Shown piece after piece: positions 4,216 through 46,879 of a DNA stretch of 53,278 nucleotides. The stretch covers positions 1-53,278 of the forward strand of contig JBBTBG010000004.1 in NCBI GenBank assembly GCA_038043805.1, read 5' to 3'. Position 1 is the first letter of the stretch, and every line of letters begins with the position of its first letter. The notes beneath the pieces were generated by a model. It worked only from the letters and a program-made list of their open reading frames with translations. It ran no database searches and was not told where the DNA came from. This DNA is from Nanobdellota archaeon. Its GTDB lineage: Archaea; Nanobdellota; Nanobdellia; Pacearchaeales; GW2011-AR1. Both the position numbers and the translations under genes were made by a program.

Positions 4216-4889
4216 ATGCTAGACCAAATCATCATATATGTTAAAGATGCTTTCAGAGAGCATCCAGGGCAGATCAGACATTTTGAGAGAACGCTCTACT
4301 GGTTAAGAGAGTATCATGCAGAAGCAGATGAGGCTTTTCAAATTGCAGCGTACGCGCATGACATTGAGCGTGCAACGAAAAACGAATAGATTGCCAGAAT
4401 TCCCTTGCTGAGTCAACATGGATATCGTGACCCTGAATTTCTTAAGTATCATCAAGAGCAAGGAGCTAGAGTAATTAAGGAATTTTTACAATCAGAAAAA
4501 CGATGCGCCACCTCACCTTAAAAGGTGAGGTTTGAATAGGCGCTCGTTTTTTGGATGCTCAAGGAACAACTCCAGCTTAAAAGCTGGAGTTTGCGTCAAG
4601 TTCCTTGACATCACATGCATACCCTGTGACTCTCTGCGATCGCGTTCATAGTTTAGTAGCAGCACATGAAGTCGGAGGAGATTTTGAACAAAAACTGTTG
4701 AAAGATTGTGATAGCATGAGTTTCTTTGAAACACAAGTCGATGGATTTGTCACAAAAAAAGTTCCTGAGTTAGGCGTAGTAAAAGTGCGTGATAAATTTG
4801 ACTGGATGTTTAATCGTATCTCTGATTCTAACATACAACATCAAGTGCGGAATCTTTACCAAGGAGCAATTAACCGGCTCCCATTATAA
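4216..4889 (+). pseudogene. HD-domain protein gene interrupted by an in-frame TAG (4387-4389) and by a 119-nt family A element
   Basis: ATG at 4216 reads ...AAYAHDIERATKNE, then TAG, then continues in the same frame as IARIPLLSQHGYRDPEFLKYHQEQGARVIKEFLQS up to 4494. The C-terminal part (HAYPVTLCDRVHSLVAAHEVGGDFEQKLLKDCDSMSFFE...) is in a different frame from 4614. Deleting 4495-4613 (119 nt, 2 mod 3) joins the two frames. Confidence 0.6.
4495..4613 (+). mobile_element. Family A structured insertion element, copy 1 (119 nt)
   Basis: Basal stem 4496-4503/4544-4551 plus GCGC/GCGC (4505-4508/4540-4543). Hairpin 4511-4517/4524-4530. Conserved joint TTTGAATAG, linker TGGATGCTC, second stem 4561-4567/4600-4606, tail GACATCA. 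Preceded by AATCA. Homologous to 24165-24271 and 46599-46691. Confidence 0.75.
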
Positions 4890-5633
4890 TCTCAATTTTC
4901 CTTTCTGCCAATCTCTGATAATTTGAATACAAGTTTTCTTTTCATCAACTTCTCCGCCTCTCTTGAGAAATCCACGCTTGCGTCCTATTTCTTCAACAAG
5001 TTCTTGCTCATCTTTTAACGTAACAGTCTCAATACCATAACATTCTTTTAAAGATTCAGGAGACTGCTTTGCCATCGTAACAATTTGATATGCTATTTTA
5101 TCAGGCTCTGCAATTTTATCAGGATGTTTTGATCCAAGCAAAACCAATTTAGAAGAGCCATCTTCATAAGGAATCACTCCAGGAGTATCTAAAATACGTA
5201 GATTTCCTGCATTTACCCATTGCACACCTCGTGTTGTTCCAGGTTTATCTGCAACAAGTGTCCGCGCTCTGCGTGCAAGGGCATTCAACAAAGCAGATTT
5301 TCCAATGTTAGGATATCCTACAACACCAATGTGAGGCTCTTCTATTTTCAAGCGTTTCGCAAGAATTTGCAAATGCCTACGAAGTTCAGCAATACCTTCA
5401 TTTTTTGTCCCAGAAACAAAAAAAGCATCAGGATACTCTTTACGTGCTCGTTCAAGTCGCAATGGAGAAGTAAGATCTTTTTTTGTGAAAGCCAATACCA
5501 GCTCTTTTCCATGTTTTTTAACTTTTCTTTCAATTTCACTATTTCGAGAAAGTTCAGTCATACGTGCATCTCCTACTACAACTAATATATCTGCATTCGC
5601 AATCACATCATCCACGACGCCCCAAAAACCCAT
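4884..5633 (-). CDS. Circularly permuted GTPase (YlqF/RbgA-type ribosome biogenesis GTPase)
   Basis: Permuted motif order: TKKD (G4), VSGTKNEG (G5), GYPNIGKS (G1), GTT (G2), DTPG (G3). Confidence 0.8.
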   Translation of the reverse strand: MGFWGVVDDVIANADILVVVGDARMTELSRNSEIERKVKKHGKELVLAFTKKDLTSPLRLERARKEYPDAFFVSGTKNEGIAELRRHLQILAKRLKIEEPHIGVVGYPNIGKSALLNALARRARTLVADKPGTTRGVQWVNAGNLRILDTPGVIPYEDGSSKLVLLGSKHPDKIAEPDKIAYQIVTMAKQSPESLKECYGIETVTLKDEQELVEEIGRKRGFLKRGGEVDEKKTCIQIIRDWQKGKLRL

Positions 5634-24164: not shown

Positions 24165-24271
24165 TTATGTCGGGAACCGACGAAAACCACGTCATTCATG
24201 GCGTGGTGGTTCCCGAGCATCTCCAAAAACGAGCGCCTATTCAAACCACGGCTTTTAGCGCATCGTTTTTA
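24165..24271 (-). mobile_element. Family A structured insertion element, copy 2 (107 nt, intergenic, first hairpin largely deleted)
   Basis: The reverse complement reads AATCA|TAAAAACGATGCGC-TAAAAGCCGTGG-TTTGAATAGGCGCTCGTTTTTGGAGATGCTC-GGGAACC...GGTTCCC-GACATAA. Confidence 0.7.
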
Positions 24272-24347
24272 TGATTTATTTTTTTCTTTGTCTGAAAATA
24301 AGAGTTATGCGTTCTTCTGTTATTTTTTCAAGATAATGAAAAGGTTT

Positions 24348-24671: not shown

Positions 24672-24752
24672 AAACGAAAAGGAAGAGGGTTTCTTTATAA
24701 ATCTTACTTTTCGTTAGGAAATATTAACGGGATAACACATTTTCTTTAGAAA

Positions 24753-24825
24753 TGGGGCCACTGGGATTCGCACCCAGGCCGCCAACACCCCATGCTGGAA
24801 TCCTACTAGGCTGGACCATGGCCCC
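24753..24825 (-). tRNA. tRNA-Pro (GGG)
   Basis: Acceptor GGGGCCA/TGGCCCC, anticodon stem CCAGC/GTTGG with loop ATGGGGT (G37), T arm CTGGG-TGCGAAT-CCCAG, discriminator A. Confidence 0.85.
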
Positions 24826-24867
24826 ATTAGCAAGGATGATGAAATGAGTCTTATAAAGATATGGAGA

Positions 24868-28347: not shown

Positions 28348-28683
28348 TTAATCTCCTCCTCCGCCTCCACCATCTCCACCACATCCACCTCCGCTATCTC
28401 CCCAATCGCTTCCACCACCAAAGTATGTAAAGAACGAGGATGAATCGCAGCTTCCCGAATATCTTGAAGACCTTCTGTTTAGTTTGGCAAGTTTGTAGAT
28501 ACAGGTTCCTACAACTAGAGCACATAGTCCCATTGTTGCGCCTAGGCATATTTTTTCACCGAGTGTCAATCCATCAGCTTGTTCTGCCTTTGCCTCAAGG
28601 TTACTCTGCGCATACACAGGGAGCGTAAGTACTGCAGTTATACCTACTTGACAAGATCTACTAATAAATTCTTGGAGTTTCAT
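28348..28683 (-). CDS. Bitopic membrane protein with a Gly/Cys-rich tail ending in GGGGGGD (paralog B)
   Basis: I take the start at MKLQEFISR (28683), 1 nt after the stop of paralog A. It shares LPxYxQSNL, GLT(L/I)GE, a TM segment and a C-terminal CGG.DGGGGGGD with the upstream gene. Confidence 0.6.
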   Translation of the reverse strand: MKLQEFISRSCQVGITAVLTLPVYAQSNLEAKAEQADGLTLGEKICLGATMGLCALVVGTCIYKLAKLNRRSSRYSGSCDSSSFFTYFGGGSDWGDSGGGCGGDGGGGGGD

Positions 28684-28684
28684 T

Positions 28685-29356
28685 TTAGTCTCCTCCACCT
28701 CCACCGCCATCACATCCACCTCCACAGTCGCTACTTCCACTACTACCACAGTCATATCCTCCAGAGTCATGGGAAGAGTGAGAATCAATATGGGAATGAG
28801 AACTCCCAAAATGCTGATGCGAGTGATCTTGATGTGTATGAGGACGTTTGGGCTCTTCAGCTTCAAGCAAGGGATGATGTTGAGGAACAGGATGTTGATA
28901 GTTTTGTGAGCGTTCAAGCTCCTCTTGATGCAGATTTCTTTGAAGGAAAGAATTATTGAGAGCAGGGTCTACGAGATCTGCTACGAGATCTGTTAAAGAA
29001 GATCCTGCATCTACGAAGGGAGTCTCATCTCCTTTGTCTTTTCTTCTTGATGCATAGGTTCCAGAAGAGTATTGTGATGGGGTGCGGGAAGATAATGCTC
29101 GCGAATCTCTATGAGATTGGTCTTTTTTAGCCTGATGTTTTTTATAGAAGTGTCTAATTCCAGTATATACAAGTGCACTCAGTCCCGCAAGGAGTGTACC
29201 TCCTGCAAGGAGTTCTCCGATTGTCAACCCATGTATGGGCGGTGCATCAAGATTGAGATTGCTCTGCGGATACATGGGGAGCATAAGGGAGCTTGTAATC
29301 GCTGTCTGATAAGTTCTCTGGAGTGTTGTTCCGTTAAGTTTTTTTTGTAGCGTCAT
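28685..29356 (-). CDS. Bitopic membrane protein with a His/Ser/Cys/Gly-rich tail ending in GGGGGGD (paralog A)
   Basis: 223-aa ORF: signal-like N-terminus, one TM segment (LLAGGTLLAGLSALVYTGI), His-rich stretch HTHQDHSHQHFGSSHSHIDSHSSHDS, then CGSSGSSDCGGGCDGGGGGGD. Confidence 0.65.
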   Translation of the reverse strand: MTLQKKLNGTTLQRTYQTAITSSLMLPMYPQSNLNLDAPPIHGLTIGELLAGGTLLAGLSALVYTGIRHFYKKHQAKKDQSHRDSRALSSRTPSQYSSGTYASRRKDKGDETPFVDAGSSLTDLVADLVDPALNNSFLQRNLHQEELERSQNYQHPVPQHHPLLEAEEPKRPHTHQDHSHQHFGSSHSHIDSHSSHDSGGYDCGSSGSSDCGGGCDGGGGGGD

Positions 29357-35758: not shown

Positions 35759-37669
35759 ATGGGGGGCGAACATACATTTTATCCAGGGGGCCAGTATCCT
35801 CTAGATGTTGGAGGAAGAATAACTTCTGATTATTCAACAGGATACACTGCTGCAGCCGGCTCTTTCGGTGCAACTACAGATCCAAGGACAAGTAACCAGC
35901 TCAAAGCAGTTTCTGACAAAATTTCTACAGGCGTCAAAGCAATAGAGATAACCGCCATTCAGATGGAAGCATTGGACTATATTCCTAAACAGCATCTCGA
36001 TGAAATTAATCGTTTAAGAAAGATGGCTGGTGTTGACCTCACATTCCATGGACCACTTGTAGAACCAACAGGCATAACTAAGCAGGGATGGGATGAATCT
36101 CAAAGAGTAGAATCAGAAAAAAAGATGTGGAGTGCAGTAGATCGTGCTCATCGTGTTGATCCTGATGGAAATATCGTGGTCACATTTCACTCAGGAGTTG
36201 CCGGACTTCAGCCTGAGACAAAAATTATCGATGAAAAAGAGAAAGATCCTAAGAAAAGGGAAAAAACTATGACTATAATGGTAGTTGATGAACAATCAGG
36301 GAATTTCAGCAGCATACCTTTGACAGAAAAAAGGTATTTTCCAGGAGAAGAAAGAGAACCAGGGGATGCGAAAGGAATAAAAAAAGAACTGCAAAAAGTA
36401 AACAAAGAAGAGTGGATAAAGAAGCTCCAACAGTTGAATTATCATGCTTATCAGGGAAAGGAGATTGTTCAGCGCGCCCTTAATTCTAAAGAAGGGATAT
36501 CTGAGGAAGAGAAGGAAATTACAAAGAAGCCTGAAACTCTTCTTTCATATTATCAAAACTATGGGGATGAAAAAGTCCAGAAAGAAATTGACTCATTTAA
36601 TCCAATCTATGCTAAGGCAGTCCATAACAAGATTCAAGAGATAGCGCATGGAGATATCTACCTCAGGGATTCTTATAATGAGCTTAAAAATCTCTTCAAT
36701 CAAGCCTACGGAACTGCAGAAAAAAACGCAATGTCTAATGATATTGAGCGCAGAGAAAAAGCAGAAGCAGATCTCAAGAAACTCAATGGATTCAAAGAGG
36801 AAATGTCTAAGGTTGTGAATAATATAGAGAACGCACAGGAAATAGATAAATTTGGAAAAGAAATCATTAGAGGCGTTAATGTTTTACGTTCTCTCAATCC
36901 TCCTGAAACGCGTAAACCACTATTAGAGTTTATGCGTGACAAAGCTTCAGACACGTTCTCGAATGTGGCTTTCAATGCATATAAGGAATTTGCGCATAAT
37001 AAGCCAAAAAATACTGCTCCCATTATTAGTATAGAAAACCCTCCTGCAGGTACGGCAGCGTTCGACCGTGCAGAAGATTTAAGGGATCTTATTGAAGATA
37101 GCCAGAAAAAGTTTACACAGAGGGCAGTAAAAGAATTAGGCCTTTCAGAGTCACAAGCAAAAGAGCAGTCTGAAAAAATTATCGGAGCAACCTGGGACGT
37201 GGGTCATATTAATATGATTCGTAAATTTGGGTATAGTGAGAAGGATACGATCAAGCAAGCTGAAACGATTGCAAAGCACGTCAAACATGTTCATCTCTCT
37301 GATAATTTTGGTCTTGAACACACAGAATTGCCTATGGGAATGGGAAACGTCAAGACTAAAGAGATTCTCTCTCTACATGAAAACTTCAAAAAAGCAAAGA
37401 AAATTATTGAAACAGGAGGATGGTTCAAAGATTTCAAGCAGACACCTCTAAGAGAAACGCTTGCAGCGTTTGGTTCTCCTCTCTACGCAAATCAAATGGC
37501 TCCTGCCTGGAATCAGGCAGCTTTTGCAAGTTCAGGCTACTTTTCAGGCTATGGATTTAATCCCGACATTCATCATAGTATCTACGGAGCGGGATTTTCA
37601 GGTCTTCCCGTAGAGCTCGGTGGTCAAATTCAAGGCCGCAGTCGTGTTTCAGGCACACCTATGGAATAG
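35759..37669 (+). CDS. Xylose isomerase-like TIM-barrel (AP endonuclease 2 family) protein with a large charged insertion
   Basis: The N-terminal block ends in LTFHGP. The C-terminal block is WDVGHINM...HVKHVHLSDNFGLEHTELPMGMGNV (the HxHxxD...H.P.G.G pattern of this fold). They are separated by ~270 aa of Lys/Glu-rich sequence. Confidence 0.6.
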   Translation: MGGEHTFYPGGQYPLDVGGRITSDYSTGYTAAAGSFGATTDPRTSNQLKAVSDKISTGVKAIEITAIQMEALDYIPKQHLDEINRLRKMAGVDLTFHGPLVEPTGITKQGWDESQRVESEKKMWSAVDRAHRVDPDGNIVVTFHSGVAGLQPETKIIDEKEKDPKKREKTMTIMVVDEQSGNFSSIPLTEKRYFPGEEREPGDAKGIKKELQKVNKEEWIKKLQQLNYHAYQGKEIVQRALNSKEGISEEEKEITKKPETLLSYYQNYGDEKVQKEIDSFNPIYAKAVHNKIQEIAHGDIYLRDSYNELKNLFNQAYGTAEKNAMSNDIERREKAEADLKKLNGFKEEMSKVVNNIENAQEIDKFGKEIIRGVNVLRSLNPPETRKPLLEFMRDKASDTFSNVAFNAYKEFAHNKPKNTAPIISIENPPAGTAAFDRAEDLRDLIEDSQKKFTQRAVKELGLSESQAKEQSEKIIGATWDVGHINMIRKFGYSEKDTIKQAETIAKHVKHVHLSDNFGLEHTELPMGMGNVKTKEILSLHENFKKAKKIIETGGWFKDFKQTPLRETLAAFGSPLYANQMAPAWNQAAFASSGYFSGYGFNPDIHHSIYGAGFSGLPVELGGQIQGRSRVSGTPME

Positions 37670-37732
37670 AATTCTCGTCTATTCCAAGTAGTAAATCCCA
37701 AAGTTTAAAAACAACCCTCTCTTCGGTATCCT

Positions 37733-38569
37733 ATGGAGAAGAAAAAGGGGAAAGAAAAGCCTAGTCCCACTCGCACCCCATTACGCAAGATCACAGACCC
37801 CAAAGACATTGCCAGAGAATTTGCAATTAAAGTGCATGAGAAATTTGATCGAACGGTAAAAGCATCTATTTTATTTGGGTCTCAGGCAAAAGATTCTGCC
37901 AAGGTGGGTTCAGATATCGATATCATTCTAATTATTGATGACGCTTCAATCAACTGGGATCTCGAGCTCATTTCATGGTATCGGGAAGAGCTAGCAAAGA
38001 TCATAGAAAATTATAACGAAAAGGCAGACTTACACATCAATACTGTAAAGCTTACGACTTGGTGGCAAGACTTAATGTACGGCGATCCCGTTGTGATTAA
38101 TATTCTTCGCTATGGAGAAGCACTCATAGACATCGGAGGGTTTTTCAATCCTCTCAAGGCGCTTCTTCTTAAAGGAAAAATTCATTCTACTCCAGAGGCC
38201 ATATACGCCGCACTCCAGCGTGCACCAGGCCATCTTTCACGAAGCAAATACGCAGAAATGAGCGCCATCGAAGGTATTTATTGGTGCATGACGGATTCAG
38301 CACAGGCAGCACTCATGACTGCAGGCAAAGTCCCTCCCTCACCGGAACAAATTCCCCTTATGCTCAAAGAAATATTTGTTGATAAAGGAATGTTGAACAT
38401 GGATGCAGTCAAGGCAATGCGAGATCTCTACACAATTCACAAAGGAATTTTACATCACGAAATAGCAGAAGTCAAGGGTGCAGATATTGACCGATGGCAA
38501 GTCGTTGCAGAAAAGTTTCTTAAAGACATGACTTCAATTATTGATAAGCTTATAGAACAGCAAAAATAA
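37733..38569 (+). CDS. Minimal nucleotidyltransferase domain protein with a helical C-terminal domain
   Basis: FGSQAKDSAKVGSDIDIILIIDD (GS...DxD NTase signature). The core is paralogous to 48083-50005. Confidence 0.75.
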   Translation: MEKKKGKEKPSPTRTPLRKITDPKDIAREFAIKVHEKFDRTVKASILFGSQAKDSAKVGSDIDIILIIDDASINWDLELISWYREELAKIIENYNEKADLHINTVKLTTWWQDLMYGDPVVINILRYGEALIDIGGFFNPLKALLLKGKIHSTPEAIYAALQRAPGHLSRSKYAEMSAIEGIYWCMTDSAQAALMTAGKVPPSPEQIPLMLKEIFVDKGMLNMDAVKAMRDLYTIHKGILHHEIAEVKGADIDRWQVVAEKFLKDMTSIIDKLIEQQK

Positions 38570-38578
38570 AAAGAAAAA

Positions 38579-39400
38579 TTATCCAACAATGCTGTAAAGA
38601 TCCTTAGACGTCTGAGTGTAATTTGGATGATTCTTAATCGCTGCTTTTGACTTCAAGAGACTGCGTGCATACTCTGCGCGCTGGGCTTCAGGAATAAGCT
38701 CATCGAGATCTTTCTCCAATTCTTTGATAGTATAACGAAGCATACGATCCGCTTCATGTGGATGAGAAGTCTCATAGGTCTCCCTGATAAGAGCTGCGCG
38801 CTCATTTGCAACATCAGGATGAACTCCTCTTATCACATGATGTTGTGCAACTGCATTCTGAAGAAGCTCTGCACTTTTTTCAATAAAAGCAGCCATCGTT
38901 CTTACATCTTTAGCTTCTTTATTGGCATCAGAAAGTTCATTCAATTGATAGTAAGCATTATGAACATGAGCAATCAATCTTTCTCGATCAGAATTTCCAA
39001 GCTCAATTAACTTATTCTTTTCAAATTTGCCAGGTTCAACTTCAGTCCAGGCCATGGGATCAATCTTTAAATAGTTCTTAGCAAAATTCTCAGGATTCTT
39101 AGGATCAGCAGTAAATGCAAAATCAATCATTCCTTCAGGATTGACAGCAAAAGATCCCAATGAGCGTGATTCAAAGACTTGCTTTGCAGGTTCGTAATGC
39201 TTTAAAAGATGAGCATCTACATCATGCCTTCCAAAAACTAATCTACCATCATATTTACGCAAGAGCCTTTCAAGTTTTCCACGAGAACTTCCTTTCCTTG
39301 TAGGATCTTCTGCTCCAAGGCCTTTGGCTGCTCCCTCTATAGAAGTATAATCTTTCGTATGACCTCTCCAAGTATCATATTCTGCTTGTGTGATTGCCAT
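38579..39400 (-). CDS. Hypothetical protein
   Basis: 273-aa ORF with no recognisable motifs. Confidence 0.55.
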   Translation of the reverse strand: MAITQAEYDTWRGHTKDYTSIEGAAKGLGAEDPTRKGSSRGKLERLLRKYDGRLVFGRHDVDAHLLKHYEPAKQVFESRSLGSFAVNPEGMIDFAFTADPKNPENFAKNYLKIDPMAWTEVEPGKFEKNKLIELGNSDRERLIAHVHNAYYQLNELSDANKEAKDVRTMAAFIEKSAELLQNAVAQHHVIRGVHPDVANERAALIRETYETSHPHEADRMLRYTIKELEKDLDELIPEAQRAEYARSLLKSKAAIKNHPNYTQTSKDLYSIVG

Positions 39401-39469
39401 ACTTTTCCTCAGTATTCAGACTATTTAAACCTTTCGGCATATAGTGCCTAAATAGTAGTAACAGAAATG

Positions 39470-39477
39470 TTTATATA
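39470..39477 (+). promoter_or_regulatory. TATA box (TTTATATA)
   Basis: Ends 23 nt upstream of the ATG at 39500. Confidence 0.5.
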
Positions 39478-39499
39478 GAAGAGAAATGCGCTTGGTATT

Positions 39500-40054
39500 A
39501 TGAGAAATACTCACATATATTCAGGCATACACTCAAAACATATAGAAGATTTAAGTGCAATAGATAGAGCTTGCTTCGGGCGCGAGCCTTCAGAGCAAGA
39601 AATAAGACGTGCATTGAGACATCCTCATCTCTTCACATTTATCACACATCACGACAATAATCGAGAACAGATTGTAGGATACGGTTTAGTACTTCCACTA
39701 AATAGAACAGCTCATAAGGCCATCAAAGAGGGAAGAATGGCTGAAGAAGAGATAGGTTCAAAACATATTGTACCAGAATCAGAGGCTTCAGGAATATATA
39801 TAGCTTCAATTGCATCTCTACCTTATCATCCTAAAATTTCTCCTCTTCGCATGGTCTCTTTGCGCGGAAGAATTGTAGGATATACCCTTGGACCCCTGCT
39901 TCGTACTCCTAAAGAAGTTTTCGCTATTGCGATTTCTCACGATGGAGAATCTATTTGTCGTGAGACAGGTATGGTGCCTCAAGAGTATCAGGGTTCTCTT
40001 CAGGGTCTCAAAGGATATACTTCTCAACTTTTCACTAAATCCCCTTTAACATAA
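39500..40054 (+). CDS. Hypothetical protein (possible GNAT-like fold, weak)
   Basis: 184-aa ORF, first gene of a tightly packed three-gene unit. Only a vague IVGYGLV-type strand pattern is visible. Confidence 0.4.
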   Translation: MRNTHIYSGIHSKHIEDLSAIDRACFGREPSEQEIRRALRHPHLFTFITHHDNNREQIVGYGLVLPLNRTAHKAIKEGRMAEEEIGSKHIVPESEASGIYIASIASLPYHPKISPLRMVSLRGRIVGYTLGPLLRTPKEVFAIAISHDGESICRETGMVPQEYQGSLQGLKGYTSQLFTKSPLT

Positions 40055-40055
40055 T

Positions 40056-40550
40056 ATGAACAATCAATCTTTAAGAAAGAACATTGCCTCTGAATCCTGG
40101 CGCCTCGTCAAGGAAAAATTCACTCGTTACCTTCCCGCAGAACTTATAGGTACAGCATCGGCGTTTGCAGCAGGAGCTTATGCAGCAAATCACTTCAATA
40201 ATAATGCTTTAGCCATAGGATATGCTGCTACATTAGGAGAAACAATAGGATTCTACACTACAATTATTACTCAGCAAGTCCGTGAAGATCGTAAACAGGC
40301 ACAACGCAATCAACAACCTTATGGTTTTCAAGGGGCTCTTTCAACTTCGTGGGATCTCATCCGTGAATTCGGTCTTGCAGAAGTAATTGATACTCCCTTA
40401 ATTCGTCCTAGTGCAAAAGCGCTAGGAACAAAAGTCCTAGGACCAGAAACAGGAATTCTGGCAGGAAAGCTTGTAGGTGACCTGATGTACTTTATCATTG
40501 CAGGAACATGCCATGAGCTCACTAAAAGAAAAAAGGAGAAGAAGATATGA
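40056..40550 (+). CDS. Membrane protein, hypothetical
   Basis: 164-aa ORF with 3-4 hydrophobic segments and a 1-nt gap from the upstream gene. Confidence 0.5.
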   Translation: MNNQSLRKNIASESWRLVKEKFTRYLPAELIGTASAFAAGAYAANHFNNNALAIGYAATLGETIGFYTTIITQQVREDRKQAQRNQQPYGFQGALSTSWDLIREFGLAEVIDTPLIRPSAKALGTKVLGPETGILAGKLVGDLMYFIIAGTCHELTKRKKEKKI

Positions 40551-41122
40551 CTCTCTTTTATACTCAAGAGGAAGAGCAAACACTTAGAGACGTAGCCGCT
40601 TTATTAATAGCTGTGCTTCCAGAAGAACAAAAAACAGCTACTGCTCCTCTGAAGGAGTTATTAAGAGCTCAAGTCGTTACACAACATTTTCATCATCCTG
40701 AAGAGTTTCTCAATATTCCTCAAGGCATTCTTATGCTCGCAGAAGTAATAACAATGGCACGTTCTGCAAGATGGAAAGAAACACAAGCAGCTAATGATGA
40801 AGAATATCAATTTGCCAGTGCAAGTACGCGTTTCTATCTTCAAAATGAATATGCCCTACGATTTGCAGGCCTTCCATCCATTCTCCAGGAAGGGCTTCTG
40901 AAAAAAGCAAGTCAACCTATCACACTCATCCCCTTATTTAAGTTTCAGCTAGGACAATCAGACGCTTTCGTTTCATATATTCATCAACGTTCTCGGTATG
41001 AAGATCTTGTGATAGATACTGGAACAAAAAACCCTCTCGAGATAAGCCCTCTTGAACTGTATCTCACGCAAGGAGAGCTTCGTATAACGCTGCGTGCGAA
41101 GCTTAGGGAGTTTCTCAAATGA
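40547..41122 (+). CDS. Hypothetical protein
   Basis: 191-aa ORF with a 4-nt overlap (ATGA) with the upstream gene. Confidence 0.5.
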   Translation: MTLFYTQEEEQTLRDVAALLIAVLPEEQKTATAPLKELLRAQVVTQHFHHPEEFLNIPQGILMLAEVITMARSARWKETQAANDEEYQFASASTRFYLQNEYALRFAGLPSILQEGLLKKASQPITLIPLFKFQLGQSDAFVSYIHQRSRYEDLVIDTGTKNPLEISPLELYLTQGELRITLRAKLREFLK

Positions 41123-41181
41123 CATTCAAAGCAGACTTCGAGCAATTGCAGGGAATCGCGACAGAACGTGCGATGAAAACA

Positions 41182-41577
41182 TCAGTATGCCTCAATCTCT
41201 AATCCTTTAATCTTCTCAAAATGCCTTGCATTACGCGTAACAAGTGTTTCATGATGTTGCAGAGCAATCGCCGCAATCATAACATCTTCAGGTTCTATTT
41301 CATCGTTCTTTTTTGTTAGTGTTGCCTCAATCTCACCTGCAATAAAAGCACTTTCCATATCAAAGTCAACAACATAATGAGATGAGAGAAATTGTTTAAT
41401 TTTTTCTTTCTCACTATCAGGTCTATCACTTAAATGTGCTCCACTTATTAGTTCCATGACAACAGGTGATGGGATAAAAAGAGCAGAGTTATTCTTTTCT
41501 AAGCGATCTTTAAGAATGCGGGCTTTTTCACTACCTCGTAAGATGTCGATGATGAATGAAGTATCTAAGCAAACCAT
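41182..41577 (-). CDS. vapC: PIN-domain toxin VapC
   Basis: MVCLDTSFIID N-terminus and conserved acidic positions. It lies directly after the antitoxin gene. Confidence 0.85.
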   Translation of the reverse strand: MVCLDTSFIIDILRGSEKARILKDRLEKNNSALFIPSPVVMELISGAHLSDRPDSEKEKIKQFLSSHYVVDFDMESAFIAGEIEATLTKKNDEIEPEDVMIAAIALQHHETLVTRNARHFEKIKGLEIEAY

Positions 41578-41823
41578 TTAATTAAGCTCCTTAACAATTC
41601 GAGAGACTCTTTCAAAGCGAGATTTTCGGTGCTTATTTCTCCGTTCCTCAATTGCTTTTTCTAATTTCTCTCCAGACTCTCGAGAGAGAACTCCAAAGAA
41701 CTTGCTCAGGGAAGGTTTTCCTGTAATTCGAATCACAATTTCTGAAAAGCTTTCATTTTCTTTGCCAAGGCCTCTTAGCCTTCGATACGCCTCTTCAGTC
41801 AGAGAGATATTCTTTGTTGCCAT
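41578..41823 (-). CDS. vapB: VapB-type antitoxin (COG1753-like)
   Basis: ATKNISLTEEAYRRLRGLGKENESFSEIV pattern. I take the ATG at 41823 rather than the GTG at 41829. Confidence 0.75.
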   Translation of the reverse strand: MATKNISLTEEAYRRLRGLGKENESFSEIVIRITGKPSLSKFFGVLSRESGEKLEKAIEERRNKHRKSRFERVSRIVKELN

Positions 41824-41847
41824 ACCCACACATATATGTGTGGGTAT
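41822..41847. promoter_or_regulatory. Perfect 26-nt palindrome ATACCCACACATATATGTGTGGGTAT between the TATA box and the vapB start (operator)
   Basis: The sequence is self-complementary over all 26 nt. A TATA-like ATATAAATA lies immediately upstream on the minus strand, and the start codon is embedded in the palindrome end. Confidence 0.65.
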
Positions 41848-41857
41848 TTATATCTTT

Positions 41858-43558
41858 CTATGACAAAGAGTCTTCTAAGCGACTGAATATACTCTGATCC
41901 AATGTTTCTCCAACGACAATAGCATCATTCAAAGGAGGAATATCTCGTTTAGAGTCATGAGACCCAGGTTCATAAGTCTCTTTTTCATCAGCGGAAAGTT
42001 CTTCTAAAATAACTTCTTCTATATCTTTTTCTTCAAAAGGCACAGGCAAATTTTCCCAAGAAAGACTTTCTCCAAGAGCATCAACATTCGAAGGAGCTTC
42101 TTTAAGGAACTCTCTCTCTTGAAGATTTACTTTTACTTTACCAATAATAGCTTCTTCTTTCTCCTCCTTTTTTGCATCCACTCTCTCTGACATATCTTCA
42201 TATATTTTACTCCCATCTAAAACCACAGTAGTTCCTTCTTTGAGCCTTCCTATGGCTCCCGTTGCTCCAACCATACAGGCAATGCCAAGTTCGCGAGCAA
42301 GAACAGCAGCATGGCTGGTACTTCCTCCTTCTTCAGCAATCAAAAGACCTGCGCTAGAGAGTGCAAGCAAGGCATCAGGATATAGAAAAGAACGTACTAC
42401 AGCATCGTTCTTATTCACATGAGAAAAATCATTGTCAGAGATAATTTTCACATCTCCTTGTCCAGGTACTCCATTCGCAAATCCTTTTAGAATTTCATTT
42501 CCAGTGTAATTCTTATTGCTTGGTTCATTTAAAGTAAAACAAAGAGGGCGTGCTTCTAATAGAAAAAGCTCTTCACCAATATATGCAAATTCGATCGCCA
42601 AAGGTTGCTTAAAATGCTCTTCACATCTCAAGGCAGTACGCGCAAGCATTTTAACTTCTCGTTCACTTAATACTTGATATGTACTCTTGCCTTCAGATAA
42701 CTTAACAATACTACTTTCTCCAGAAGAGTCTCGCAAGACTGCATGTTTCTTTAAAGCTATGTTCACACGCTCAATAGAGAGTTCGCCTTCTTTCTCGCTC
42801 AGTTCATAATGATCTGGGGTAATCACTCCAGAGACAACACCTTCTCCCAGTCCCCAAACAGCTTCGACAACCATTCGGTTACTAGTAAGAGGATCTTTCG
42901 TAAAGAGCGTTCCCGATCTCTCAGAATCAATCATATGCTGAATAACAACTCCTAAAGAAAAATCATTCCAACTCATACCCTTTAAAGAGCGATATTTGAG
43001 TGCGCAGGCATTAAAAAGAGATGCAAAACATTGTTTTACTCTACGCAAAACATCTTTCTCTCCTTTTACATGAAGATAACTATCATGTTGCCCTGCAAAA
43101 CTCTCAGTTTCTTTACTGCATACAGAACTTCGTACAGATACAAAAAGAGGTTCAAAAGAACGCTTTAAAATAGCCAGTGCGCTGCTATCCTTTCCTTCAA
43201 ATACATGTTTATCAACATCTAAAATATCATAAGCTTCACTAACTGCATCAGCCAAATCTGAGGGTATGCTCGCATCAAGAATCATTTTTTTAATCTGCCC
43301 AGAAATCTCCTCAATTTTTTTAAAGTCATTCATATCTGTGTTCTCAAACAAAGACATAATTTTTGTTGACAATCCAGATTTTTCAAGAAAATGATTATAG
43401 GCTTTACTCGTAACACAAAAACCTGCAGGGACAGGATATTTTTCACGATACATCTCAGAAAGGAAAGCTCCTTTACTTCCCATCAAAGAAATATCTTGAG
43501 CTCCACTTTCAGAGAACCACCTTATAAAATCACTGGCTACTTCCCCTTTTCCAACCAT
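41858..43558 (-). CDS. PEP-utilising enzyme family protein: ATP-grasp (PPDK_N) plus mobile His domain, no PEP/pyruvate TIM-barrel domain
   Basis: GSKGAFLSEMYREKYPVPAGFCVT near the N-terminus and phospho-His motif GGSTSHAAVLARELGIACMVG. The C-terminus is an acidic tail instead of the third domain. Confidence 0.75.
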   Translation of the reverse strand: MVGKGEVASDFIRWFSESGAQDISLMGSKGAFLSEMYREKYPVPAGFCVTSKAYNHFLEKSGLSTKIMSLFENTDMNDFKKIEEISGQIKKMILDASIPSDLADAVSEAYDILDVDKHVFEGKDSSALAILKRSFEPLFVSVRSSVCSKETESFAGQHDSYLHVKGEKDVLRRVKQCFASLFNACALKYRSLKGMSWNDFSLGVVIQHMIDSERSGTLFTKDPLTSNRMVVEAVWGLGEGVVSGVITPDHYELSEKEGELSIERVNIALKKHAVLRDSSGESSIVKLSEGKSTYQVLSEREVKMLARTALRCEEHFKQPLAIEFAYIGEELFLLEARPLCFTLNEPSNKNYTGNEILKGFANGVPGQGDVKIISDNDFSHVNKNDAVVRSFLYPDALLALSSAGLLIAEEGGSTSHAAVLARELGIACMVGATGAIGRLKEGTTVVLDGSKIYEDMSERVDAKKEEKEEAIIGKVKVNLQEREFLKEAPSNVDALGESLSWENLPVPFEEKDIEEVILEELSADEKETYEPGSHDSKRDIPPLNDAIVVGETLDQSIFSRLEDSLS

Positions 43559-46239: not shown

Positions 46240-46458
46240 TTACAATCCTTCTACCGCTTGTTCAATAAGACGAGAGACAGAAGAACCCTTAGCTTTGCTT
46301 ACTTCTTTAAGTTTCTTAATAGTACGCAAGGGAAGGGTAATATCTATACGCTTTCGTTTCCACAATTTCTCTCGTGTCTGGTCATAATGCTCCAGCTCCA
46401 TGAAATCTTGCTTGTACTTCTCAAAAATGTATTTGATATATTCTTCAGTGAATGACAT
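46240..46458 (-). CDS. Ribbon-helix-helix (CopG-like) protein, candidate antitoxin
   Basis: C-terminal IDITLPLRTIKKLKEVSKAKGSSVSRLIEQAV fits the RHH pattern. 14-nt overlap with the Doc gene. Confidence 0.6.
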   Translation of the reverse strand: MSFTEEYIKYIFEKYKQDFMELEHYDQTREKLWKRKRIDITLPLRTIKKLKEVSKAKGSSVSRLIEQAVEGL

Positions 46459-46879
46459 GTTTCAACCTCTCTGCAATAACGCGAATGTCACTAATATTTT
46501 TAGAAGCGATGGAAAGCATATGATGTTTGAGTAATTCTCGATCAACAGTTTTTTTGTGTTGATCAGCAAAGGCAAATGTTATAAACATGGCTGTTTTTTT
46601 ATGTCGGGGATCGACGGTCGCTCCCCGAGCATCCAAAGCACGAGCGCTTCCCCAAACCCCATCCTTTAGGATGGAGTGCGCATCGTGCTTTTGATTTCCA
46701 TCACTAAAGGGATGGTCAATTAAAATGGCTCGCATAAGATAGGCAAGTTTTTTGTAAATGCCTAATTTCTTTCTCTGCTGTTGATCGAGGGCAAAATCAA
46801 GGCTTGAGCTATTACTAAGAGTACCTCCAAATCCAAGAGCAATTCTACTAATGTCTTCCTTACTAATATTCATACACAT
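46445..46879 (-). CDS. doc: Doc (Fic-fold) toxin gene carrying an in-frame 93-nt family A element inside the catalytic motif
   Basis: HPFSDGNQK-[31 inserted codons]-TAMFITFAF. Removing 46599-46691 gives HPFSDGNQKTAMF, matching the length and pattern of HPFxDGNKRTA. Confidence 0.7.
   Translation of the reverse strand: MCMNISKEDISRIALGFGGTLSNSSSLDFALDQQQRKKLGIYKKLAYLMRAILIDHPFSDGNQKHDAHSILKDGVWGSARALDARGATVDPRHKKTAMFITFAFADQHKKTVDRELLKHHMLSIASKNISDIRVIAERLKHVIH
46599..46691 (-). mobile_element. Family A structured insertion element, copy 3 (93 nt)
   Basis: The minus strand reads AATCA|AAAGCACGA-T-GCGC-AC-TCCATCC-TAAA-GGATGGGG-TTTGGGGAA-GCGC-TCGTGCTTT-GGATGCTC-GGGGA-GCGACCGTCGA-TCCCC-GACATAA. 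Confidence 0.75.

What the first reader, a model, noticed from the sequence alone, without database searches (positions are those of the whole stretch)
4216..4889. Precise removal of the 119-nt family A copy rejoins the two frames of an HD-domain gene
I applied the boundaries inferred independently from the Doc copy: the element starts right after AATCA and ends 2 nt after GACAT. The HD gene copy then spans 4495-4613, which is 119 nt (2 mod 3). This is exactly the shift needed to join the upstream frame (...VIKEFLQS, ending 4494) to the downstream frame (HAYPVTLCDRVHSLVAAHEVGG..., from 4614). One boundary rule therefore restores the reading frame in two unrelated genes.
Basis: seen in the sequence. 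Interest (0 to 1): 0.65.

Follow-up and report, generated by a model that had tools for sequence, protein, structure and literature searches.

The report
Hairpin transposon copy disrupting an archaeal gene
A 119-base, two-hairpin mobile DNA element has landed inside a small HD-domain (DUF4202) gene of a tiny DPANN archaeon and killed it; cutting the element out on paper restores the gene exactly, which is the normal footprint of this class of transposon rather than a sign of an intron.

Summary
Removing 119 nt (4495-4613, or any of five equivalent cuts back to 4491-4609) rejoins the two frames. The repaired 184-aa protein is a DUF4202/HD protein that aligns without a gap across the junction to 16 homologs and to a syntenic, uninterrupted ortholog (an empty site).

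The gene is nevertheless dead. An in-frame TAG at 4387-4389 (CAG in the ortholog) also interrupts it, and TAG is an ordinary stop in this contig.

The insert belongs to a roughly 93-131 nt family, mostly 118-120 nt. I found 128 distinct copies in Pacearchaeota, Woesearchaeota and Nanoarchaeota genomes and metagenomes. It has:
- two tandem stem-loop modules with strong covariation;
- no terminal inverted repeats and no autonomous coding capacity;
- an invariant ATCA at the left junction and GACAT-N-A at the right.

Copies disrupt other genes in both orientations, are depleted from ORFs, and show a strand bias. The right-end hairpin is identical or nearly identical to right-end hairpins of IS200-type (Y1 HUH transposase) elements from the same archaeal group.

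Best reading: a non-autonomous PATE/MITE-type derivative of IS200/IS605-like single-strand transposons.

The parts
4216..4389 (+). N-terminal piece of the DUF4202/HD gene. It contains the conserved HD dipeptide (AYAHDIERA) and ends at an in-frame TAG (4387-4389).
   Evidence: ORF list and translation. The TAG aligns to CAG (Gln) in ortholog L113. TAG is a normal stop in the window.
4390..4492 (+). Middle piece of the same gene, same frame as the N-terminal piece (...IARIPLLSQHGYRDPEFLKYHQEQGARVIKEFLQ-). It ends at the AT of the insertion site.
   Evidence: Translation. Gapless alignment to 16 homologs and to the ortholog DNA.
4493..4611 (+). Family A element, 119 nt, given with the preferred ends 5'-CA...GACAT-3'. 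Module 1 is about 4493-4552 (outer stem AAAAACGA(T)GCGCC/GGCGCTCGTTTTT plus an inner hairpin with a TTAAAAG loop). Module 2 is about 4553-4611 (GATG(C)TCAAGGAAC ... GTTCCTTGACAT plus an inner hairpin).
   Evidence: Unique in-window exact match. Fold z = -10. Family alignment and covariation, 22 of 42 pairs with compensatory changes. Empty-site ortholog.
4612..4889 (+). C-terminal piece of the DUF4202/HD gene (S)HAYPVTLCDRVHSLVAAHEVGG...RLPL, with stop TAA at 4887-4889, in a frame shifted by +2 relative to the upstream pieces.
24167..24273 (-). Second family A copy, 107 nt, intergenic. The inner hairpin of module 1 is partly deleted.
   Evidence: BLAST and nhmmer, sequence, fold.
46601..46693 (-). 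Third family A copy, 93 nt, with module 2 truncated. It is inserted in frame in the Fic/Doc toxin gene (46445-46879, minus strand) and splits the active-site motif HPFSDGN|KKTA.
   Evidence: Doc homolog motif census.

Best explanation
The 119-nt block is one copy of a non-autonomous mobile DNA element. It is hairpin-ended, has no terminal inverted repeats and is too short to encode anything. It inserted into the DUF4202/HD gene of a DPANN archaeon without deleting or (beyond at most the AT dinucleotide) duplicating host sequence. The insertion shifted the frame and inactivated the gene, which has since picked up a nonsense mutation. Exact in-silico excision therefore restores the ancestral ORF.

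Shown:
- the insertion, its exact extent and the empty site;
- multi-copy family status across DPANN genomes;
- conserved two-module hairpin structure;
- insertion into other genes in either orientation;
- depletion from ORFs;
- strand and orientation bias;
- sequence identity of its right-end hairpin with right ends of IS200-type elements that encode a Y1 (HUH) transposase.

Inferred: the element is a PATE/MITE-type derivative of IS200/IS605-like transposons. A Y1 TnpA supplied in trans would move it as single-stranded DNA ('peel and paste'). TnpA would bind the two inner hairpins and cut the top strand after A-W-A-T at the left (host side) and after G-A-C-A-T at the right (element side). Excision and insertion would then be seamless. 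The central GAT, which can pair either with the ATC of the left junction or with the CAT of the right end, may help present both cleavage sites.
For: Insertion and empty site:
- (ortholog L113 uninterrupted; 119 nt is the only indel).

Multi-copy family:
- Three copies in the window.
- Dozens in one Pacearchaeota MAG and many in Woesearchaeota/Nanoarchaeota MAGs.
- 128 unique flanked copies after the metagenome scan.

Ends:
- Left ATCA in 66/66 copies.
- Right end GACAT, then N (A94 C18 G8 T8), then A (121/128).
- No TIR.

Structure:
- Two adjacent imperfect hairpins.
- 22/42 pairs with compensatory changes.
- G.U 20 versus A.C 8 (p=0.036), favouring the top strand.

DNA-level insertion:
- Repaired genes HMUDK_hel and NUDIX (element antisense) and HAD_2 and EamA (element sense) each give one Pfam stretch across the junction.
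- Insertions are harmful: 14% of copies lie inside ORFs versus 46-48% of motif-matched control sites, p=2.5e-7.
- The HD gene has an extra nonsense mutation.

Strand bias, as expected for replication-coupled ssDNA transposons:
- Adjacent copies share orientation in 18/23 cases (p=0.005).
- The element's top strand lies on the negative-GC-skew strand in 44/60 loci (p=4e-4).

Link to Y1 transposons:
- Two PF01797 Y1_Tnp genes lie in the held DPANN loci (E 1e-18 and 1e-21).
- About 1000 homologs occur in archaeal gene contexts.
- The L242 IS right-end hairpin is 20/20 identical to the module-2 hairpin of copy L074, and the L243 one is 19/20 identical to copy L054, with the same polarity. Both classes share an upstream GGAA-like motif (not conserved in every family A copy) and end in CAT.
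- The left linker is 17 nt in family A versus 18 nt in the IS.
- A preprint reports K07491 (Y1/RAYT) as the only transposase KO with strict hits in 256 Nanobdellota proteomes.
- PATE definition: PMC3119063. IS608 mechanism: PMC3597680.
Against: - No Y1 transposase gene lies in the window, and none was seen whose own ends match family A over their whole length. nhmmer with the family model finds nothing in the tnpA loci L242-L244. Only the right-end hairpin region is shared.
- The right linker (about 20 nt, folded into an outer stem) is longer than the left. This is opposite to the canonical IS200/IS605 asymmetry.
- No guide/cleavage-site complementarity of the IS608 type could be demonstrated.
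- The conserved A two bases past the cut, and the A-rich downstream target, are not standard IS200/IS605 features.
- The GC-skew sign is opposite to what is reported for IS608/ISDra2 if the usual leading-strand convention holds. It is also confounded with gene orientation.
- An AT 2-bp duplication or a 2-bp recombinase crossover cannot be distinguished from a duplication-free insertion.
Confidence: 0.8

Rival explanations
1. The element is a mobile DNA element, but it is moved by a mechanism other than Y1 HUH single-strand transposition. One option is a site-specific (serine, IS607-like, or tyrosine) recombinase exchanging at the shared AT dinucleotide between a circular junction (GACAT|CAAAAAA) and look-alike targets (AWAT|NANAAA). 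Another is a still unknown hairpin-recognising enzyme, as for double-hairpin elements of fungal mitochondria.
For: - AT is present at both junctions, and the target downstream of the cut resembles the element's own 5' end.
- No cognate transposase with full-length matching ends was found.
- Linker geometry is non-canonical for IS200/IS605.
- Tiny nested double-hairpin inserts ('family B') occur inside family A loops and T-runs without duplication, showing a wider ecosystem of hairpin elements of unknown mobility.
Against: - Hairpin stems covary, and G.T wobble is strand-biased. This is not expected for double-strand recombinase sites.
- The right-end hairpin is identical to that of Y1_Tnp-encoding IS.
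- A preprint reports Y1/RAYT as the only transposase KO with strict hits in the phylum.
- Orientation and strand bias fit ssDNA transposition.
Confidence: 0.13
2. The element is removed after transcription, so the interrupted genes stay functional. It would act either as an intron (archaeal bulge-helix-bulge type cut by the tRNA splicing endonuclease, or self-splicing) or as a translational bypass ('hop') element like T4 gene 60 or the byps of Magnusiomyces mitochondria.
For: - Exact removal restores ORFs in six unrelated genes.
- In the HD copy the codon TCA precedes the element and also ends it, resembling take-off and landing codons.
- The element is highly structured as RNA.
- DPANN archaea have broad-specificity splicing endonucleases (background knowledge; PMC12397907 abstract).
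Against: - The HD gene also carries a nonsense codon.
- Elements interrupt genes in antisense orientation as often as in sense.
- Copies are 3-fold depleted from ORFs and mostly intergenic with no orientation rule relative to neighbours.
- The consensus structure has only 1-nt bulges. It has no two 3-nt bulges separated by 4 bp, and no pairing between the two exon edges.
- No ribozyme or intron family matches even at E<=10.
- Matching TCA codons exist only when N=C (18/128 copies), and no stop codon follows the putative take-off codon.
Confidence: 0.04
3. The match is an assembly or chance artefact: a repeat mis-assembled into the gene, or a frame coincidence (1 in 3).
For: - Repeats do break assemblies here: two Logan contigs start inside the Doc copy.
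- A 2-mod-3 length alone has a one-in-three chance of fitting.
Against: - The same insertion with the same flanks occurs in at least one independent assembly from a different sample (L117; L115 is sequence-identical and may be the window's own genome).
- The junction is gapless against 16 homologs and an ortholog.
- The same precise rule holds in five other genes.
Confidence: 0.02

Closest known systems
PATEs (palindrome-associated transposable elements) and other IS200/IS605-derived miniature elements, e.g. in Haloquadratum walsbyi (PMC3119063)
   Same: - No terminal inverted repeats.
- Palindromes near both ends.
- No target duplication (at most 2 bp here).
- Too short to encode a transposase.
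- Expands to many near-identical copies.
- Ends related to those of IS605/IS200-type transposons.
- Is itself a target for other tiny mobile repeats, like SMR-A elements in PATEs.
   Different: - Found in DPANN archaea with roughly 1-Mb genomes.
- Each end hairpin is wrapped in a second, outer stem with a single bulged pyrimidine, giving two tandem, similarly built modules.
- The right linker is longer than the left.
- Only the right-end hairpin region could be matched to a tnpA-bearing IS.
IS200/IS605 family (IS608, ISDra2): Y1 HUH 'peel and paste' single-strand transposons (PMC3597680)
   Same: - Subterminal hairpins instead of TIRs.
- Strand-specific polarity.
- Conserved short sequence on the host side of the left end (A-W-A-T) and a conserved element-side right terminus (GACAT).
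- Seamless insertion, so excision restores the target.
- Orientation bias along the chromosome.
   Different: - No transposase gene inside the element.
- Linker asymmetry is reversed.
- Guide/cleavage pairing is not demonstrable.
- There is an extra preference for A-rich sequence 3' of the cut.
Classical MITEs (Correia/NEMIS, Stowaway-like, archaeal SM elements)
   Same: Small (about 120 nt), non-coding, multi-copy, structured, and can disrupt or be read through in genes.
   Different: MITEs are defined by terminal inverted repeats matching a DDE transposon, and usually by a target duplication. Family A has asymmetric ends with no TIR.
Rickettsia palindromic elements (RPE)
   Same: Roughly 100-150 nt palindromic repeats that can sit inside protein-coding genes in frame. 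The 93-nt Doc copy is in frame and stop-free.
   Different: RPEs are typically in frame and translated. Most family A genic copies carry stops or shift the frame (the HD copy is 119 nt), and there is no sequence relation.
REP/BIME/REPIN elements with RAYT (REP-associated Y1 transposases)
   Same: Hairpin repeats are presumably handled by a Y1 HUH enzyme. The modules are mosaic and recombining (left and right module types are shuffled in one genome).
   Different: REPs are 20-40 nt with a 5' GTAG-type tetranucleotide, are strictly extragenic, and cluster around a single rayT gene. Family A is a fixed two-module unit with defined ends, and single modules are rare.
Double-hairpin elements of fungal mitochondria / repetitive hairpin-forming elements (PMC2800124)
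   Same: Very small two-hairpin mobile inserts found in intergenic regions, in other elements and occasionally in genes. The mechanism is unknown. The nested 'family B' inserts of about 51 nt resemble these most.
   Different: Organellar, GC-rich clusters in AT-rich genomes, with no link to a transposase family.

Membership tests
PATE (palindrome-associated transposable element; PMC3119063) | No terminal inverted repeats | tested here: met
   The 5' end is CA(A)nACGATGC and the 3' end is ...CCTTGACAT. They are not reverse complements of each other.
PATE (palindrome-associated transposable element; PMC3119063) | Palindromes close to both termini | tested here: met
   The inner hairpins sit 17 nt from the left end and about 20 nt from the right end. 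Outer stems reach the ends. Covariation is seen in 22/42 pairs.
PATE (palindrome-associated transposable element; PMC3119063) | No target duplication | tested here: inconclusive
   The empty site L113 and the Doc motif show no duplication longer than 2 bp. An AT dinucleotide at both junctions could be a 2-bp duplication, a crossover core, or target plus element end.
PATE (palindrome-associated transposable element; PMC3119063) | Too short to encode a transposase; multi-copy | tested here: met
   Lengths are 93-131 nt. There are 128 unique copies, dozens of them in one MAG.
PATE (palindrome-associated transposable element; PMC3119063) | Near-terminal palindromes related to those of IS605/IS200-type transposons | tested here: met
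   The right-end hairpin matches 20/20 and 19/20 to Y1_Tnp-bearing IS in DPANN contigs. It has the same polarity, a partly shared GGAA-like upstream motif and a CAT terminus. No left-end sequence similarity was shown; only the linker length is similar.
IS200/IS605 family transposition (PMC3597680) | Y1 HUH transposase (PF01797) available in the same genome | tested here: inconclusive
   None is present in the 53-kb window. Two were found in 1.38 Mb of related DPANN loci, and many in metagenomes. The source genome could not be scanned as a whole.
IS200/IS605 family transposition (PMC3597680) | Insertion 3' of a specific tetra- or pentanucleotide that stays outside the element | tested here: met
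   The host-side AT is invariant, preceded by A (73%) and W (85%), giving A-W-A-T|. That the AT belongs to the host gene is shown by the Doc codons GGA AAT.
IS200/IS605 family transposition (PMC3597680) | Left linker longer than right (about 15-19 versus 8-10 nt); guide/cleavage-site complementarity | tested here: not met
   The left linker is 17 nt and the right about 20 nt. No tetranucleotide 5' of the hairpin feet is complementary to the cleavage sites. Only the central GAT pairs with ATC or CAT.
IS200/IS605 family transposition (PMC3597680) | Strand-specific activity with orientation bias linked to replication | tested here: met
   - 18/23 adjacent copies are co-oriented (p=0.005).
- GC skew is negative relative to the top strand in 44/60 loci (p=4e-4).
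- G.T is in excess on the top strand.
The direction relative to replication is not determinable from MAG contigs.
IS200/IS605 family transposition (PMC3597680) | Excision as a single-strand circle and cleavage by TnpA | not testable with these tools
   This needs biochemistry or junction PCR.
MITE (classical) | Terminal inverted repeats matching a DDE transposon, with target site duplication | tested here: not met
   No TIR. No multi-copy DDE-type ORF in the held loci.
Archaeal bulge-helix-bulge intron | Two 3-nt bulges separated by a 4-bp helix at the exon-intron borders; sense orientation in transcripts | tested here: not met
   Single-sequence and consensus folds show only 1-nt bulges and unpaired borders. 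Genic copies occur in both orientations.
Programmed translational bypass (T4 gene 60 type) | Matched take-off and landing codons, a stop codon after take-off, and an intact functional gene | tested here: not met
   TCA/TCA matching occurs only when N=C (18/128 copies). GAA, not a stop, follows the take-off codon. The gene has an upstream nonsense codon.
Known RNA families (Rfam 15) | Match to a curated covariance model | tested here: not met
   Only tRNAs were found at gathering threshold in the window. Over the element, only far sub-threshold hairpin look-alikes appeared (best 23 bits versus a 102-bit cut-off).

The most novel reading that the evidence does not exclude
Family A elements could be seamless, reversible gene interrupters in ultra-small DPANN genomes. 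Removal would be at the DNA level (TnpA-catalysed precise excision switching genes such as the Doc toxin back on) or, more radically, at the RNA level, with the two-module fold recognised by the broad-specificity archaeal splicing endonuclease. In the second case sense-oriented copies would behave as a new class of mobile mini-introns in protein-coding genes.
Probability: 0.05. Interest if true: 0.85.

Novelty: new member of a known kind. Interest (0 to 1): 0.35.

Why it matters
For annotating this window, it turns three small unexplained ORFs (57, 38 and 94 aa) into one DUF4202/HD pseudogene with two lesions. It also explains a 31-aa insert in the Doc toxin active site.

More broadly, it documents an apparently undescribed, widespread family of hairpin-ended miniature transposons in Pacearchaeota, Woesearchaeota and Nanoarchaeota. 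These organisms have genomes of about 1 Mb and are usually thought to be almost free of mobile DNA. One MAG carries dozens of near-identical copies and at least four freshly disrupted genes.

The family offers:
- a tractable substrate set (many covarying hairpins, exact ends, target logo) for studying Y1 HUH transposases in DPANN;
- a marker for strain-level population genomics;
- a cause of contig breaks in DPANN assemblies.

Smaller double-hairpin inserts of about 51 nt nested inside these elements hint at a second mobile family that has not been characterised.

Tried and rejected
- The gapless repeat finder on the whole window did not detect the family, because the copies differ by indels. 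Local BLAST and nhmmer did.
- Rfam at gathering and at E<=10 gave nothing relevant.
- The IMG/VR scan with the family pattern gave zero hits.
- An exact-match metagenome search for an empty Doc site (with A/C ambiguity at the diagnostic base) gave zero hits.
- A search for autonomous copies with an ORF between modules found none. I looked at partial and solo modules and at 125 right-module hits from metagenomes. Only internal deletions and nested small inserts turned up.
- A first, narrow Y1 motif regex and an all-vs-all ORF clustering found no transposase in 545 kb. A broader regex on 1.38 Mb found two.
- TAG recoding was considered as an explanation for the in-frame TAG and rejected, because TAG ends 17 of 59 long ORFs.
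- Alternative excision registers were rejected. Removing 117 nt (ATCA| to GACAT|) does not restore the frame. Removing 116 nt (crossover at CA) adds a codon absent from all homologs and would give GNHKKTA in Doc.
- A 9-bp imperfect target duplication (ATCAAAAAA / ATNANAAAA) was rejected because the left A-run covaries with its pairing partner inside the element.
- A hammerhead-like CTGATGAG in some module-1 variants was rejected because the GAAA/stem III context is missing.
- attC/integron was rejected because there are no arrays and no R-box consensus.
- Literature searches for DPANN MITEs or repeats found no prior description.
Full report
**1. The observation**

Window 4216-4889 holds three short ORFs: 4216-4389 (57 aa), 4405-4521 (38 aa, same frame) and 4605-4889 (94 aa, frame +2). 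Deleting 4495-4613 (119 nt) fuses ...VIKEFLQS to HAYPVTLCDRV... in one frame. ATCA lies both just before the block and at its end, so five cut registers (4491-4609 to 4495-4613) give the same product.

The repaired protein hits Pfam DUF4202 (3.9e-13) and HD (2.7e-5) with single stretches spanning the junction. A database search returned 67 homologs of about 180-190 aa. In an alignment with 16 of them there is no gap, loss or duplication at the junction.

The closest homolog (P0001, 71% identity) lies on a syntenic contig, L113, with the order 141-aa gene, DUF4202, then a convergent 249-aa GTPase. Its DNA reads ...CTAAAATCA|AGAGCG..., and the 119 nt is the only indel at this site relative to the window.

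**2.

The first two ORFs are separated by an in-frame TAG (4387-4389). It aligns with CAG (Gln) in L113. TAG terminates 17 of 59 long ORFs in the window, so it is a genuine stop. The gene therefore has two independent lesions.

Both lesions are present in an independent assembly, L117 (Hainich groundwater, one mismatch in 900 nt, at 4882). L115 is sequence-identical over the same 900 nt and may be the window's own genome in another assembly.

**3. The element family**

BLAST and nhmmer find two more copies in the window, both on the minus strand:
- 24167-24273, which is intergenic;
- 46601-46693, which lies inside a Fic/Doc gene.

A pattern built from the conserved blocks hit many genomes of Pacearchaeota, Woesearchaeota and Nanoarchaeota. 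One Lake Tanganyika-type Pacearchaeota MAG (VGKP01) carries dozens of near-identical copies. Hits in high-GC bacteria lack the rest of the element and are chance matches. The window is therefore from a DPANN archaeon.

A second scan with the right-hand module added 120 metagenome loci. In all, 128 unique flanked copies were collected, mostly 118-120 nt long.

All copies share one architecture:
- **Module 1:** A-run/T-run plus an ACGA(T)GCGC/GCGCTCGT outer stem with a bulged T. This encloses an inner 8-9-bp hairpin with a TTAAAAG-type loop, followed by GTTTG.
- **Module 2:** a GATG(C)TCAAGG.../...CCTTGACAT outer stem with a bulged C. This encloses a second inner hairpin, followed by GTTTTC.

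RNAalifold on 23 diverse copies predicts 42 pairs, and 22 of them keep pairing through changes on both sides. The folds are far more stable than shuffles (z = -10 for the HD copy). There are no terminal inverted repeats. No Rfam family matches, and there are no hits in IMG/VR.

**4. Exact ends**

The left junction is ATCA in every copy. The right end is GACAT, followed by a variable base (A94 C18 G8 T8) and then A (121/128).

In the Doc gene this rule gives HPFSDGNQKTA. Among 118 homologs, 117 have DGNK(K/R)T/A, 78 have exactly HPFSDGNKKTA, and none has Q. Cutting AT|CA...GACAT|AA gives exactly HPFSDGNKKTA.

Three lines of evidence therefore favour 5'-CA...GACAT-3' inserted at A-W-A-T^N-A:
- the Doc motif;
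- the base after GACAT differs among otherwise identical copies in one genome;
- a paralogous empty site (L035) compared with a filled site (L011) has AA, not CA, at the diagnostic positions.

This reading cannot be distinguished from a 2-bp AT duplication or an AT crossover. For the HD copy N = C, so both rules give the same product.

**5. DNA insertion, not RNA removal**

- **Other disrupted genes.** In VGKP01, precise removal also restores four other genes, each with one Pfam stretch across the junction. HMUDK_hel and NUDIX carry the element antisense to the gene. HAD_2 and EamA carry it in sense. Most of these copies contain in-frame stops.
- **Depletion from ORFs.** Only 14% of copies lie inside long ORFs, against 46-48% of motif-matched control sites in the same loci (Fisher p = 2.5e-7). 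Genic insertions are therefore selected against.
- **No orientation rule.** Intergenic copies follow no orientation rule relative to neighbouring genes.
- **No intron-type structure.** The structure has only single-base bulges and unpaired borders, so there is no bulge-helix-bulge motif.
- **No bypass signal.** The TCA/TCA 'take-off/landing' coincidence in the HD copy exists only because N = C there, which is true for 18/128 copies.

With the extra nonsense codon in the HD gene, these points make intron or bypass readings unlikely (about 4%).

**6. Mechanism**

Several features point to a strand-specific, single-strand mechanism:
- covarying hairpins, with more G.T than A.C mismatches on the top strand (20 versus 8, p = 0.036);
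- co-orientation of neighbouring copies along contigs (18/23, p = 0.005);
- the top strand lying on the negative-GC-skew strand in 44/60 loci (p = 4e-4). This is confounded with a preference for being antisense to local genes.

A recent preprint reports that K07491 (a Y1 'REP-associated tyrosine transposase') is the only transposase KO with strict hits in 256 Nanobdellota proteomes. Both are full-length PF01797 Y1_Tnp proteins (E 1.7e-18 and 1.6e-21). About 1000 homologs exist in metagenomes. Most are on contigs of about 1 kb, and where context is visible they sit next to archaeal genes (RFC, eIF2-gamma, NYN, Fic, PPDK_N).

These IS200-type elements have an 18-nt left linker followed by a hairpin. 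Their right end consists of GGAA, a hairpin, 11-13 nt, and then ...CAT.

The links to family A are these:
- The right-end hairpin of the L242 IS is 20/20 identical to the module-2 inner hairpin of family A copy L074.
- The right-end hairpin of the L243 IS is 19/20 identical to that of copy L054, in the same polarity.
- Aligned together, module 2 looks like an IS right end. It has about 5 extra nt 5' and about 12 extra nt 3' of the hairpin, which pair to form the outer stem.

Family A thus meets the published descriptive definition of a PATE (PMC3119063): no TIR, near-terminal palindromes, no target duplication, no coding capacity, and palindromes related to IS605/IS200-type transposons. The most likely mechanism is trans-mobilisation by a Y1 HUH TnpA as single-stranded DNA. 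That process is seamless in both directions (PMC3597680), which explains why in-silico excision restores genes exactly.

What does not fit, or remains open:
- no tnpA-bearing element with full-length family A ends was found;
- the right linker is longer than the left;
- IS608-type guide/cleavage complementarity is not evident;
- the target also prefers A-rich sequence after the cut, which resembles the element's own 5' end (AT|CAAAAAA).

These points leave room (about 13%) for another enzyme or mechanism.

**7. Comparison and novelty**

The element works like an IS200/IS605-derived miniature element (PATE). It is not a classical MITE (no TIR), not an RPE (not generally in frame or translated), not a REP/BIME (defined two-module unit with exact ends; solo modules are rare), and not an intron.

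I found no prior description of it in DPANN archaea, so I rate it a new member of a known kind. The specific finding, that precise removal rejoins the HD gene, is the expected signature of such an insertion in what is now a pseudogene. That is of modest interest in itself.

The family has some independent interest:
- it is abundant in ultra-small genomes;
- it shows a recent burst with several disrupted genes in one MAG;
- it has a doubly nested hairpin architecture;
- it is itself invaded by smaller double-hairpin inserts of about 51 nt.

**8. Verdict**

- **Observation:** confirmed.
- **Interpretation:** partly supported. The frame is restored, the boundary is shifted by about 2 nt, and the gene is dead rather than spliced.
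- **Best explanation:** a non-autonomous hairpin transposon of the IS200/IS605-PATE type. Confidence is about 0.8 for 'mobile DNA insertion in a pseudogene', and lower (about 0.55-0.6) for the specific Y1 single-strand mechanism.
- **Interest:** 0.35.

Noticed in passing
window 4387-4389: An in-frame TAG in the DUF4202/HD gene aligns to CAG (Gln) in the ortholog. This is a second, independent inactivating lesion, also present in an independent groundwater assembly (L117).
   Followed up: yes
window 46445-46879 (minus strand), element 46601-46693: The Fic/Doc toxin gene carries a 93-nt, stop-free, in-frame truncated family A copy. It inserts 31 aa between N and K of the catalytic HPFSDGN|KKTA motif, so the toxin is probably inactivated. 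Two Logan contigs (L120, L121) begin inside this copy, so the repeat breaks assemblies.
   Followed up: yes
L034 ~4687-4912, L088 ~2132-2307, L105 ~4549-4721, L136, L188, L228 ~663-837: A second family ('family B') of double-hairpin inserts of about 51 nt (CCTCAAGG...CCTTGATG GCA CTCAAGAA...TTCTTGATG) is nested inside family A copies. In some copies they lie in the TTAAA^AG hairpin loop. In others they lie, in reverse orientation, in the TCGTTT^TTTG T-run. No duplication is produced. Their stems resemble the module-2 outer stem.
   Followed up: partly
L130 (rc) ~1095-1629; L228 3350-3817; L242 2501-2956; L243 2501-2941: IS200-type elements encoding only a Y1_Tnp (PF01797) transposase occur in DPANN-like contigs, each with its own left and right hairpins. 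There are about 1000 homologs in metagenomes, mostly on contigs of about 1 kb, as expected for multi-copy IS.
   Followed up: partly
VGKP01 loci L009, L016, L039, L073: In one Pacearchaeota MAG, near-identical 120-nt copies interrupt genes for a 5-hmdU DNA kinase-like protein, a HAD hydrolase, a NUDIX hydrolase and an EamA transporter. This points to a recent transposition burst. Left and right module subtypes are also found recombined (L049).
   Followed up: partly
window ~36000-42000: Cumulative GC skew rises to a maximum near 38 kb and then falls steeply (skew about -0.25 at 42-46 kb). This may be a replication origin or terminus, or a switch in gene orientation.
   Followed up: no
window 28350-28750: A low-complexity CCTCCACC-type repeat lies on the plus strand (Gly-rich if read on the minus strand), inside overlapping ORFs 28348-28917 and 28685-29356.
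   Followed up: no
L115 17656-19038 (beyond the window's left end on the same genome): A Csm6/Cas02710-family gene lies a few kb beyond the window start in a sequence-identical contig (GCA_964364415.1).
   Followed up: no
window 24752-24826 and 24167-24273: The intergenic family A copy lies about 480 nt from tRNA-Pro(GGG). No functional link is evident.
   Followed up: no
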